NCBI RefSeq assembly: GCF_003334785.1
Contig: NZ_QOWV01000002.1
DNA: 64,000 bases
Reading direction: 5' to 3' (one strand)
Source of the DNA: Escherichia coli
GTDB taxonomy: Bacteria; Pseudomonadota; Gammaproteobacteria; Enterobacterales; Enterobacteriaceae
The position numbers are program-made. Each line of letters starts with the position of its first letter. Position 1 is the stretch's first letter. Positions 27,801 to 30,800 of this stretch are shown here, one piece after another.

Positions 27801-30800
27801 ATTGGTCATGTGCGTTACCCCACGGCTGGCAGCTCCAGCGCCTCTGAAGCGCAGCCGTTTTACGTTAACTCCCCGTATGGCATTACGCTTGCCCACAACG
27901 GCAATCTGACCAACGCTCACGAGTTGCGTAAAAAACTGTTTGAAGAAAAACGCCGCCACATCAACACCACTTCCGACTCGGAAATTCTGCTTAATATCTT
28001 CGCCAGCGAGCTGGACAACTTCCGCCACTACCCGCTGGAAGCCGACAATATTTTCGCTGCCATTGCTGCCACAAACCGCTTAATCCGCGGCGCGTATGCC
28101 TGTGTGGCGATGATTATCGGCCACGGTATGGTTGCTTTCCGCGATCCAAACGGGATTCGTCCGCTGGTACTGGGAAAACGTGATATTGACGAGAACCGTA
28201 CAGAATATATGGTCGCTTCCGAAAGCGTAGCGCTCGATACGCTGGGCTTTGATTTCCTGCGTGACGTCGCGCCGGGCGAAGCGATTTACATCACTGAAGA
28301 AGGGCAGTTGTTTACCCGTCAATGTGCTGACAATCCGGTCAGCAATCCGTGCCTGTTTGAGTATGTATACTTTGCCCGCCCGGACTCGTTTATCGACAAA
28401 ATTTCCGTTTACAGCGCGCGTGTGAATATGGGCACGAAACTGGGCGAGAAAATTGCCCGCGAATGGGAAGATCTGGATATCGACGTGGTGATCCCGATCC
28501 CAGAAACCTCGTGTGATATCGCGCTGGAAATTGCTCGTATTCTGGGCAAACCGTACCGCCAGGGCTTCGTTAAAAACCGCTATGTTGGCCGCACCTTTAT
28601 CATGCCGGGCCAGCAGCTGCGTCGTAAGTCCGTGCGCCGTAAACTGAATGCCAACCGCGCCGAGTTCCGCGATAAAAACGTCCTGCTGGTCGACGACTCC
28701 ATCGTCCGTGGCACCACTTCTGAGCAGATTATCGAGATGGCACGCGAAGCCGGAGCGAAGAAAGTGTACCTCGCTTCTGCGGCACCGGAAATTCGCTTCC
28801 CGAACGTTTATGGTATTGATATGCCGAGCGCCACGGAACTGATCGCTCACGGTCGCGAAGTTGATGAAATTCGCCAGATCATCGGTGCTGACGGGTTGAT
28901 TTTCCAGGATCTGAACGATCTGATCGACGCCGTTCGCGCTGAAAATCCGGATATCCAGCAGTTTGAATGCTCGGTGTTCAACGGCGTCTACGTCACCAAA
29001 GATGTTGATCAGGGCTACCTCGATTTCCTCGATACGTTACGTAATGATGACGCCAAAGCAGTGCAACGTCAGAACGAAGTGGAAAATCTCGAAATGCATA
29101 ACGAAGGATGATGCCTTCGCTGAGGGTGCCGGTCTGGCACCCTGACTTGCAACTCCCGCCGAAATCCTGCAAAGTCTGCCTGCAAGTCTGACAGGGCAAC
29201 TATTTATGAAACGACTCATTGTAGGCATCAGCGGTGCCAGCGGCGCGATTTATGGCGTGCGCTTATTACAGGTTCTGCGCGATGTCACAGATATCGAAAC
29301 GCATCTGGTGATGAGCCAGGCAGCGCGCCAGACCTTATCCCTCGAAACGGATTTTTCTCTGCGCGAAGTGCAGGCATTAGCCGATGTCACGCACGATGCG
29401 CGCGATATTGCCGCCAGCATCTCTTCCGGTTCTTTCCAGACGCTGGGGATGGTGATTTTACCCTGTTCAATCAAAACCCTTTCCGGCATTGTCCATAGCT
29501 ATACTGATGGCTTACTGACCCGTGCGGCAGATGTGGTGCTGAAAGAGCGTCGCCCGTTGGTGCTCTGCGTGCGTGAAACACCATTGCACTTAGGCCATCT
29601 GCGTTTAATGACTCAGGCGGCAGAAATCGGTGCGGTGATTATGCCTCCCGTTCCGGCGTTTTATCATCGCCCGCAATCCCTTGATGATGTGATAAATCAG
29701 ACGGTTAATCGTGTTCTTGACCAGTTTGCGATAACCCTTCCTGAAGATCTCTTTGCCCGCTGGCAGGGCGCATAACTCCGCTGTTGCCCTGTTTCAGGGC
29801 AATTTTGCAACCGCGATCAAATCCTCGACATTTTGTTTCTGCCATTCAATCGAAACGCTGCGATTCAACCGCTATACCTGCTATCTTCAACTTCAGGACA
29901 ATAATGCAACGTCTTATTAACATATTTAACGTTGAATGTTACTGTTGTCGTCAAGATGGCATAAGACCTGCATGAAAGAGCCTGCAAACACACAACACAA
30001 TACACAACATAAAAAAGCCATTTTCACTTGAGGGTTATGTATGAAGAAGTCGATTCTCGCTCTGTCTTTGTTAGTCGGTCTCTCCACAGCGGCTTCCAGC
30101 TATGCGGCGCTACCGGAGACGGTACGTATCGGAACCGATACCACCTACGCACCGTTCTCATCGAAAGATGCTAAAGGTGATTTTGTTGGCTTTGATATCG
30201 ATCTCGGTAACGAGATGTGCAAACGGATGCAGGTGAAATGTACCTGGGTTGCCAGTGACTTTGACGCGCTGATCCCCTCACTGAAAGCGAAAAAAATCGA
30301 CGCTATTATTTCGTCGCTTTCCATTACCGATAAACGTCAGCAGGAGATTGCCTTCTCCGACAAGCTGTACGCCGCAGATTCTCGTTTGATTGCGGCCAAA
30401 GGTTCACCGATTCAGCCAACGCTGGATTCACTGAAAGGTAAACATGTTGGTGTGCTGCAGGGATCAACCCAGGAAGCTTACGCTAACGAGACCTGGCGTA
30501 GTAAAGGCGTGGATGTGGTGGCCTATGCCAACCAGGATTTGGTCTATTCCGATCTGGCTGCAGGACGTCTGGATGCTGCGTTACAAGATGAAGTTGCTGC
30601 CAGCGAAGGATTCCTCAAGCAACCTGCTGGTAAAGATTTCGCCTTTGCTGGCTCATCAGTAAAAGACAAAAAATACTTCGGTGATGGCACCGGTGTAGGG
30701 CTACGTAAAGATGATGCTGAACTGACGGCTGCCTTCAATAAGGCGCTTGGCGAGCTGCGTCAGGACGGCACCTACGACAAGATGGCGAAAAAGTATTTCG

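What the first reader, a model, noticed from the sequence alone, without database searches (positions are those of the whole stretch)
29957..29972. Sigma54-type -24/-12 promoter upstream of argT
TGGCAT-N5-CTGCA has GG and GC at the canonical spacing about 70 bp upstream of argT, consistent with nitrogen-regulated (NtrC-dependent) expression of the Lys/Arg/Orn-binding protein. The paralogous hisJ downstream has no comparable motif that I could see.
Basis: partly seen in the sequence, partly recalled or inferred. Interest (0 to 1): 0.3.

Follow-up and report, generated by a model that had tools for sequence, protein, structure and literature searches.

The report
Known sigma-54 promoter of argT
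This is the already documented nitrogen-starvation (sigma-54, NtrC-assigned) promoter of the E. coli argT amino-acid transport gene: real, conserved and bound by sigma-54 in published experiments, so correct but not new.

Summary
The window is E. coli K-12-type chromosome (purF-ubiX-argT-hisJQMP).

The sequence match alone is not beyond chance. Three other lines make it real:
- **Rank:** it is the top hit in the window for a leave-one-out sigma-54 matrix.
- **Conservation:** TGGCA and TGCA are invariant in 46 orthologous loci from eight genera, while the N5 spacer and flanks drift.
- **Published binding:** the identical 17-mer is sigma-54 ChIP-seq peak OS22 in E. coli. It is also the experimentally known argT promoter of Salmonella.

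The literature assigns activation to NtrC.

Two corrections:
- hisJ does have a comparable motif, TGGCAC-GATAA-GTGTA at 30980-30995. It lies about 100 bp downstream of the only near-consensus NtrC site in the window (30882-30898). Its -12 GC has decayed to GT in Escherichia but is canonical in Citrobacter, Kluyvera and Buttiauxella.
- E. coli has no good NtrC site within about 430 bp upstream of argTp.

Published work also shows that the same sigma-54 site represses an overlapping sigma-70 promoter. An rpoN mutant can therefore raise argT expression in nitrogen-replete medium.

The parts
29956..29972 (+). Core sigma-54 promoter of argT (argTp), ATGGCATAAGACCTGCA. The -24 element TGGCAT is at 29957-29962 and the -12 element CTGCA at 29968-29972.
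   Evidence: Sequence. Top matrix hit in the window. Identical to published ChIP-seq motif OS22. TGGCA and TGCA are invariant in 46 orthologous loci.
29983..29983 (+). Predicted sigma-54 transcription start (plus or minus 2 nt), giving a 58-nt 5' UTR.
   Evidence: Inferred. It lies 12 nt downstream of the C of the -12 GC. It equals 'motif centre + 19' and the 58-nt distance to argT given in Bonocora Table 1. I did not verify it by reading a mapped 5' end.
29985..30012 (+). C/A-rich stretch of the argT 5' UTR (CAAACACACAACACAATACACAACATAA), the probable pairing site for the GcvB sRNA R1 seed.
   Evidence: Sequence. [quoted passage not shown] The exact pairing was not computed here.
30041..30823 (+). 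argT coding sequence (lysine/arginine/ornithine-binding periplasmic protein, 260 aa).
   Evidence: ORF. RefSeq annotation of 100% identical DNA.
29917..29945 (+). Candidate overlapping sigma-70 promoter: -35 TTAACA (29917-29922), 17-nt spacer, -10 TACTGT (29940-29945), start near 29951.
   Evidence: Schaefer et al. 2015 place the sigma-54 motif at +6 to +22 of a sigma-70 start, and report argT expression with rpoN at 23% of vector. The hexamer assignment is my inference. The tool's own sigma-70 scan did not call it. The TAACA is conserved but the -10 is not.
29783..29807 (+). Terminator-like hairpin just after the ubiX stop codon: TTGCCCTG-TTT-CAGGGCAA followed by TTTTG.
   Evidence: Fold of -15.1 kcal/mol, z = -4.1. 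Compensatory changes occur in Pseudocitrobacter and Buttiauxella. It separates argTp from upstream transcription.
29879..29888 (+). Conserved block CTGCTATCTT (9 of 10 positions invariant in 47 sequences) at about -104 to -95 from the predicted start. Function unknown.
   Evidence: It lies inside the 198-bp fragment (29785-29982) that suffices for strong argTp-gfp expression (primers, expression).
30882..30898 (+). Near-consensus NtrC site TGCACTATCGTGGTGCA (1 mismatch) in the argT-hisJ spacer, with a flanking weaker site at 30853-30869.
   Evidence: It is the only site with at most 1 mismatch in the whole window. It falls inside the strong NtrC ChIP-seq peak assigned to hisJQMP, 2424941-2425021, which maps to window 30833-30913. 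Conserved as tandem sites in relatives.
30979..30995 (+). Decayed sigma-54-type motif upstream of hisJ, ATGGCACGATAAGTGTA (-12 GC changed to GT).
   Evidence: 11.06 bits, rank 15. The orthologous position is the canonical ATGGCACGATAACTGCA/T in Citrobacter, Kluyvera and Pseudocitrobacter, and TTGGCATGAAACATGCA in Buttiauxella, at 15.8-18.2 bits. No hisJ entry appears in the sigma-54 ChIP-seq tables.

Best explanation
29956-29972 is argTp, the established sigma-54 (RpoN) promoter of E. coli argT.

Proposed mechanism:
1. RNA polymerase carrying sigma-54 binds the -24 GG and -12 GC as a stable closed complex. This is shown by published ChIP-seq and gSELEX.
2. The closed complex cannot open on its own. 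Under nitrogen limitation, phosphorylated NtrC uses ATP hydrolysis to open it, and transcription starts near 29983. This step rests on established knowledge of sigma-54 promoters, on the published assignment of NtrC to argT, and on a weak published NtrC ChIP signal over the promoter.
3. The transcript has a 58-nt C/A-rich leader that is a target of the GcvB sRNA. It encodes the Lys/Arg/Orn-binding protein, which feeds the HisQMP2 transporter.
4. When NtrC is inactive, the parked sigma-54 holoenzyme also hinders an overlapping sigma-70 promoter that starts near 29951. This is published in vitro and by RNA-seq.

In E. coli the NtrC input does not come from a recognisable consensus site in the 430 bp upstream. 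It most likely comes from weak or non-canonical sites within -198 to -1, helped by the high NtrC level in starved cells. This last point is inference.
For: - Exact motif with correct spacing, strand and distance.
- Best sigma-54 matrix score in the window with argT left out of the matrix.
- The window is E. coli and the gene is argT.
- Published sigma-54 ChIP-seq peak with the identical 17-mer. Published RpoN gSELEX peak in the ubiX/argT spacer.
- Salmonella argT carries the identical 18-mer, is sigma-54 dependent and is assigned to NtrC.
- An explicit published statement of sigma-54/NtrC control of E. coli argT.
- An NtrC ChIP-seq peak at argT.
- A 198-bp fragment ending at 29982 drives the strongest GFP signal of 12 sigma-54 promoters tested.
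- Phylogenetic footprint: all 46 orthologous loci have TGGCAY-N5-(C/A)TGCA at the same place, with a variable spacer; 9 of 11 against 22 of 206 invariant positions, p = 3.7e-7.
- Bonocora's own supplement shows the matrix score retained in about 13 of the species compared.
Against: - The sequence score alone is at chance level for 64 kb.
- EcoCyc listed the E. coli promoter as 'predicted', not experimentally confirmed, in 2015.
- No NtrC consensus site with fewer than 5 mismatches lies in the 430 bp upstream in E. coli.
- In vitro NtrC gSELEX lists no peak in this spacer.
- The in vivo NtrC peak is weak (5.4-fold) and was added by eye.
- In nitrogen-replete RNA-seq, the presence of rpoN lowers argT expression.
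- I could not read the primary papers (Schmitz 1988, Zimmer 2000, Reitzer and Schneider 2001), which are not held in the library.
- I read no mapped E. coli 5' end for the sigma-54 start.
Confidence: 0.95

Rival explanations
1. The site works mainly as a sigma-54 'parking' site. It represses an overlapping sigma-70 promoter of argT and contributes little productive sigma-54 transcription in E. coli.
For: Schaefer et al. 2015 place the motif at +6 to +22 of a sigma-70 start. They report argT expression with rpoN at 23% of the rpoN-less control, and in vitro inhibition of sigma-70 initiation by sigma-54. Shimada et al. 2021 propose a general repressive role for RpoN-bound promoters. The NtrC evidence at this promoter is weak.
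Against: Sigma-54 and NtrC dependence of argT is reported for Salmonella with an identical core and stated for E. coli. The 29785-29982 fragment ends before the predicted sigma-54 start yet gives very strong expression in a nitrogen-response set-up. The -24/-12 elements are far better conserved than the putative sigma-70 -10 hexamer. The two roles are compatible rather than exclusive.
Confidence: 0.1
2. argTp is a genuine sigma-54 promoter, but in Escherichia it is activated in cis by NtrC bound at the strong tandem sites in the argT-hisJ spacer (30853-30898, about 0.9 kb downstream), not by sites upstream.
For: - The only near-consensus NtrC site in the window is at 30882-30898.
- The NtrC ChIP peak there is 23.7-fold, against 5.4-fold at argT.
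- Relatives carry a near-perfect NtrC site at -220 from the argT start that Escherichia and Salmonella lack.
- The hisJ sigma-54 motif next to the strong sites has lost its -12 GC in Escherichia and gives no sigma-54 ChIP peak.
- It is established knowledge that NtrC can act from kilobase distances and from either side of a promoter.
Against: A plasmid fragment covering only 29785-29982, without the hisJ-proximal sites, gave the strongest expression of 12 sigma-54 promoters. That test was multicopy, and ntrC dependence was not shown in what I read. Many NtrC ChIP peaks in the same table coincide with the sigma-54 site itself, so the weak argT peak is not diagnostic.
Confidence: 0.07
3. The motif is a chance match with no function.
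For: Random 64-kb sequences of the same dinucleotide make-up give 3.8 hits at or above its matrix score. Other hits of 12-13 bits in the window are not reported as sigma-54 bound.
Against: Published sigma-54 binding in vivo and in vitro at exactly this sequence. An identical functional promoter in Salmonella. Invariance of the -24 and -12 elements across eight genera while neighbouring bases vary.
Confidence: 0.01

Closest known systems
E. coli argTp as catalogued (EcoCyc predicted promoter; sigma-54 ChIP-seq site OS22 of Bonocora et al. 2015)
   Same: Identical 17-mer ATGGCATAAGACCTGCA, same gene, and the same 58-nt distance from predicted start to ATG.
   Different: Nothing. It is the same object.
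Salmonella Typhimurium argT promoter (STM2355; 'argTr' of the Ames laboratory literature, name from my own knowledge)
   Same: Identical core TGGCATAAGACCTGCATG. Listed as experimentally sigma-54 dependent with NtrC as activator.
   Different: The flanking spacer and 5' UTR differ at many positions. I could not read the primary mutational analysis (Schmitz et al. 1988).
glnAp2 and glnHp2, the textbook NtrC-activated sigma-54 promoters
   Same: -24 GG / -12 GC architecture, a closed complex awaiting NtrC, and nitrogen-limitation control (established knowledge; the motifs are listed).
   Different: glnAp2 has strong consensus NtrC sites just upstream. E. coli argTp has none with fewer than 5 of 13 mismatches in 430 bp. 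The argTp core deviates from consensus at two positions (TGGCAT, CTGCA) and scores at the 31st percentile of bound sites.
Promoter region of hisJ, the paralogue 1 kb downstream
   Same: An orthologous -24/-12 motif at about -65 from the ATG, tandem NtrC sites about 100 bp upstream, and nitrogen-regulated expression reported.
   Different: In Escherichia the -12 element is GTGTA, not CTGCA (11.1 bits against 15.8-18.2 in other genera). No sigma-54 ChIP peak is reported. hisJQMP is described as sigma-70 transcribed and ArgR regulated in growing cells.

Membership tests
Sigma-54 (RpoN) -24/-12 promoter | GG and GC dinucleotides 10 bp apart within TGGCAC-N5-TTGCW | tested here: met
   TGGCAT-AAGAC-CTGCA at 29957-29972, with 2 deviations from consensus outside GG/GC. 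It scores 13.28 bits on a leave-one-out matrix, rank 1 in the window and the 31st percentile of 135 bound sites.
Sigma-54 (RpoN) -24/-12 promoter | Intergenic position, same strand as the downstream gene, at a plausible leader distance | tested here: met
   It lies in the 265-bp ubiX-argT spacer on the + strand. The motif ends 68 nt before the ATG, giving a predicted 58-nt leader.
Sigma-54 (RpoN) -24/-12 promoter | Occupancy by sigma-54 holoenzyme | tested here: met
   By look-up of published data, not my own experiment. ChIP-seq peak OS22, FAT 12. RpoN-holoenzyme gSELEX peak at 61% and 55%. ChIP-chip and motif in Salmonella.
Sigma-54 (RpoN) -24/-12 promoter | -24 and -12 elements conserved in orthologous promoters while the spacer is free to vary | tested here: met
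   All 46 loci carry TGGCAY-N5-(C/A)TGCA at the homologous position. Nine of 11 specified positions are invariant against 22 of 206 others. Spacer variants seen: AAGAC, AAAAG, GAAAA, GGGAA, GAGAA, AGAAG.
Sigma-54 (RpoN) -24/-12 promoter | Transcription from the predicted start depends on rpoN | not testable with these tools
   Published for Salmonella: WT/delta-rpoN ratio 3.5, listed as experimentally shown. For E. coli it is stated in a review-type passage. Nitrogen-replete RNA-seq shows the opposite sign because of an overlapping sigma-70 promoter. I read no mapped 5' end.
NtrC (Ntr) regulon promoter | NtrC-binding enhancer sites (TGCACC-N4-TGGTGCA) within about 100-250 bp upstream | tested here: not met
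   The best sites in the ubiX-argT spacer and in the 430 bp upstream of the start have 5 of 13 mismatches, which is chance level at 471 per window. Relatives such as Pseudocitrobacter and Buttiauxella have 1-mismatch sites at -220.
NtrC (Ntr) regulon promoter | NtrC occupancy in vivo or in vitro | tested here: inconclusive
   ChIP-seq gives a 5.4-fold peak at 2425861-2425941 (window about 29913-29993), 'added from visual interpretation'. In vitro NtrC gSELEX lists no peak there.
NtrC (Ntr) regulon promoter | NtrC-dependent induction under nitrogen limitation | not testable with these tools
   Cited as shown by expression analysis (reference 2), and NtrC is listed as the activator in Salmonella. 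The primary paper (Zimmer 2000) is not held.

The most novel reading that the evidence does not exclude
In the genus Escherichia the regulatory wiring of the argT-hisJ pair may have been rearranged.

- argTp has lost the consensus NtrC site that relatives keep at -220.
- The hisJ sigma-54 promoter has lost its -12 GC but keeps a strongly occupied tandem NtrC enhancer.
- That enhancer, 0.9 kb downstream of argTp, might now serve argTp by looping. hisJQMP would then be nitrogen-regulated through read-through from argTp or through the weakened GT promoter.

This would be an example of enhancer re-assignment between paralogous bacterial promoters.
Probability: 0.07. Interest if true: 0.4.

Novelty: already known. 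Interest (0 to 1): 0.08.

Why it matters
It matters little as a discovery. argTp is in the standard E. coli and Salmonella sigma-54 regulon lists and has even been used as an engineering part.

The check is useful as a calibration. It shows that a reader working from sequence alone can pick a true sigma-54 promoter. It also shows that the motif score by itself would not have justified the call.

The only mildly open points are two:
- where NtrC acts from at E. coli argTp, since no consensus site lies upstream;
- whether the decayed hisJ -12 element still works.

Tried and rejected
**Papers not available or searches that failed**
- Reitzer and Schneider 2001 and Zimmer et al. 2000 are not held, by PubMed id or by PMC id. 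The primary evidence is therefore cited only through later papers.
- A search for the old names 'argTr' and 'dhuA' returned only irrelevant papers.
- A search on ArgP/argT timed out.

**Computations that gave nothing**
- An Rfam scan of 29000-32000 at E <= 1 found no RNA family.
- The built-in sigma-70 and terminator scan found nothing in the ubiX-argT spacer. It missed both the ubiX hairpin (only 4 T in the tail) and the published sigma-70 promoter (-10 matches only 3 of 6).

**Ideas considered and dropped**
- I first took TTCAGGGCAATTTTGCA (29793-29809) as a weak NtrC site. I rejected that: it has 5 of 13 mismatches, which is chance level, and it is the 3' arm of the ubiX terminator hairpin.
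- I looked for a sigma-54 motif under Shimada's RpoN gSELEX peak in the dedD-cvpA spacer (window about 26782). Nothing scores above 6 bits.
- I looked by eye for IHF, Nac and LysR-type consensus matches in the conserved TTATTAACATATTTAAC block. No convincing match, so I make no claim.
- The 63-aa ORF at 29784-29975 that overlaps the motif is a mechanical ORF inside the spacer. I did not consider it further.
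Full report
**What is in the sequence**

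Positions 29957-29972 on the + strand read TGGCATAAGACCTGCA. GG (29958-29959) and GC (29970-29971) have the spacing of the sigma-54 consensus TGGCAC-N5-TTGCW. The motif lies in the 265-bp spacer between a 189-aa ORF ending at 29775 and a 260-aa ORF starting at 30041.

A 1.7-kb stretch around it is 100% identical to E. coli K-12 MG1655 and matches all 5,426 complete E. coli genomes searched. The flanking genes are annotated ubiX and argT, followed by hisJQMP.

**Is it more than chance?**

By sequence alone, only weakly.
- The strict pattern occurs twice in the window against 0.39 expected, and 7 of 100 shuffles do as well.
- I built a log-odds matrix from the 135 sigma-54-bound motifs in Tables 1 and 2 of Bonocora et al. 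2015, leaving the argT site out. The argT site scores 13.28 bits. That is the best of about 128,000 positions in the window, but only the 31st percentile of bound sites.
- First-order Markov random sequences of the same size give 3.8 such hits on average.

The other window hits of 12-13 bits are absent from the published binding tables. Score does not predict binding here.

**Comparative evidence**

I scanned one genome per species for a degenerate pattern in the argT coding region ([10 protein letters not shown]), so that the choice of loci did not depend on the promoter. This returned 46 loci from Escherichia, Salmonella, Citrobacter, Kluyvera, Buttiauxella, Pseudocitrobacter, Cedecea and a Klebsiella-labelled isolate.
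- Thirty-nine loci have TGGCAY-N5-CTGCA about 83 nt before the ATG. The other seven have TGGCAY-N5-ATGCA at the same place.
- In alignments, TGGCA and TGCA are invariant. The N5 spacer takes at least six forms and the flanks diverge.
- Over 47 distinct sequences, 9 of 11 specified motif positions are invariant, against 22 of 206 other spacer positions (Fisher p = 3.7e-7).
- The sequences are related, so this p-value is a within-alignment contrast and not an independent-sample probability.

**Published evidence for the same object**

- Bonocora et al. 2015 list the identical 17-mer ATGGCATAAGACCTGCA as intergenic sigma-54 ChIP-seq site OS22 for argT. It has FAT 12, lies 58 nt from predicted start to ATG, and was flagged as predicted in EcoCyc. 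Their supplement shows the score retained in most of the species compared.
- Shimada et al. 2021 report an RpoN-holoenzyme gSELEX peak in the ubiX/argT spacer.
- Samuels et al. 2013 list Salmonella argT among four operons experimentally shown to be sigma-54 dependent. NtrC is the activator, the core is the identical TGGCATAAGACCTGCATG, and the WT/delta-rpoN ratio is 3.5.
- Ma et al. 2020 cloned 'argTp' and found it the strongest of 12 sigma-54 promoters driving gfp. Their primers delimit the fragment as window 29785-29982.

The feature is therefore argTp, a catalogued promoter.

**Mechanism**

- *Shown by published binding data:* sigma-54 holoenzyme occupies the site.
- *From established knowledge of sigma-54 promoters:* it sits as a closed complex until an AAA+ enhancer-binding protein opens it.
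- *From the literature above:* that protein is NtrC-P under nitrogen limitation.
- *Inferred:* the start is near 29983, 12 nt past the -12 C.

A hairpin, TTGCCCTG-TTT-CAGGGCAA plus TTTTG (29783-29807), folds at -15.1 kcal/mol with z = -4.1. Compensatory changes in other genera support it as the ubiX terminator, which insulates argTp from upstream transcription.

*1. In E. coli the best match to TGCACC-N4-TGGTGCA anywhere in the 430 bp upstream has 5 of 13 mismatches, which is chance level.
- Pseudocitrobacter, Buttiauxella and one Kluyvera species carry 1-2-mismatch sites at -220.
- Citrobacter has degenerate versions of these sites.
- Escherichia and Salmonella have none.
- In vivo NtrC ChIP-seq shows only a 5.4-fold peak over argTp, added by eye. 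In vitro NtrC gSELEX lists none.

*2.
- ATGGCACGATAAGTGTA lies at 30979-30995, 48 nt before the hisJ ATG.
- About 100 bp upstream of it is TGCACTATCGTGGTGCA (30882-30898), the only near-consensus NtrC site in the 64-kb window.
- That site lies under a 23.7-fold NtrC ChIP-seq peak assigned to hisJQMP.
- In Citrobacter, Kluyvera, Pseudocitrobacter and Buttiauxella the orthologous motif is canonical (for example ATGGCACGATAACTGCA, 15.8-18.2 bits).
- In every Escherichia locus the -12 is GTGTA (11.1 bits), and in Salmonella it is CCGCA (11.2 bits).
- No sigma-54 peak for hisJ appears in the ChIP-seq tables or supplements.
- hisJQMP is described as sigma-70 transcribed and ArgR regulated in growing cells.

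*3. The proposed refutation test.* 'argT expression independent of rpoN' is too blunt.
- Schaefer et al. 2015 place the sigma-54 motif at +6 to +22 of a sigma-70 start.
- They find argT expression with rpoN to be 23% of that without it.
- They show sigma-54 inhibiting sigma-70 initiation in vitro.
- The implied start, about 29951, fits TTAACA (29917-29922), a 17-nt spacer, and TACTGT (29940-29945). That hexamer assignment is my reading.

**Rivals**

- *A chance match* is excluded by the binding and conservation data.
- *A mainly repressive role* is compatible with, not opposed to, promoter function. The -24/-12 elements are much better conserved than the sigma-70 -10 hexamer.
- *A remote-enhancer model,* with NtrC at 30853-30898 activating argTp from 0.9 kb downstream, fits the missing upstream sites and the ChIP asymmetry. 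It is weakened by the strong activity of the 198-bp plasmid fragment that lacks those sites. I give it about 7%.

**Verdict**

The object is already known, so interest is low. The residual open points are the source of NtrC input at E. coli argTp and the status of the decayed hisJ motif.

Noticed in passing
window 30979-30995 (+), with 30853-30898: hisJ has an orthologous sigma-54-type motif, ATGGCACGATAAGTGTA. Its -12 GC is GT in all Escherichia loci but canonical (CTGCA/CTGCT/ATGCA) in Citrobacter, Kluyvera, Pseudocitrobacter and Buttiauxella. The tandem NtrC sites about 100 bp upstream are retained and are strongly occupied in published ChIP-seq.
   Followed up: yes
window 29985-30012 (+): A C/A-rich run in the argT 5' UTR (CAAACACACAACACAATACACAACATAA) has a conserved ACACAACAC core. 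It fits the published GcvB sRNA R1-seed target upstream of the argT ribosome-binding site. The pairing itself was not computed, because gcvB is not in the window.
   Followed up: partly
window 29917-29951 (+): A sigma-70 promoter overlaps argTp. TTAACA-N17-TACTGT would start near 29951, matching the published placement of the sigma-54 motif at +6 to +22 of a sigma-70 start that sigma-54 represses. The TAACA of the -35 is invariant across genera but the -10 is not, so the conserved block may serve another purpose.
   Followed up: partly
window 29783-29807 (+): A conserved hairpin, TTGCCCTG-TTT-CAGGGCAA plus TTTTG, lies just after the ubiX stop codon (-15.1 kcal/mol, z = -4.1). It shows compensatory substitutions in Pseudocitrobacter and Buttiauxella and is probably the ubiX terminator. 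The built-in terminator scan missed it.
   Followed up: yes
window 29879-29888 (+): The block CTGCTATCTT, about 100 bp upstream of the argT start, is conserved at 9 of 10 positions in 47 orthologous sequences from eight genera. It matches no regulator consensus that I could recognise.
   Followed up: no
window 29793-29811 and 29892-29910 (+): A 19-nt direct repeat, TTCAGGGCAATTTTGCAAC / TTCAGGACAATAATGCAAC (84% identical), has copies 99 bp apart. The first copy overlaps the terminator 3' arm. The second is conserved in Escherichia, Salmonella and Citrobacter. Its meaning is unknown.
   Followed up: partly
L004, L005, L023 (Pseudocitrobacter); L019, L024, L036, L043 (Buttiauxella), about -220 from the argT start: Near-perfect NtrC sites (TGCACCAGTGTGGTGCT, TGCGCCAGTGTGGTGCA) lie upstream of the ubiX terminator in these genera. 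At the homologous position E. coli has the 3' end of the ubiX coding sequence (TTGCCCGCTGGCAGGGCGCA) and no NtrC-like site.
   Followed up: partly
window 30900-30935 (+): An AT-rich conserved block, AAATGCATACTTAAGCATTTTTAATGAAAAATAATAC, lies between the NtrC sites and the hisJ motif. It is conserved across most genera. It may correspond to the ARG boxes reported for hisJ, but this was not checked against a matrix.
   Followed up: no
It is not among the published high-stringency sigma-54 ChIP-seq sites, and its gene context was not examined.
   Followed up: no
window about 26782 (dedD-cvpA spacer): Shimada et al. 2021 list a 31-32% RpoN gSELEX peak here. No sigma-54 matrix hit above 6 bits exists between 26600 and 27100 on either strand.
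   Followed up: partly
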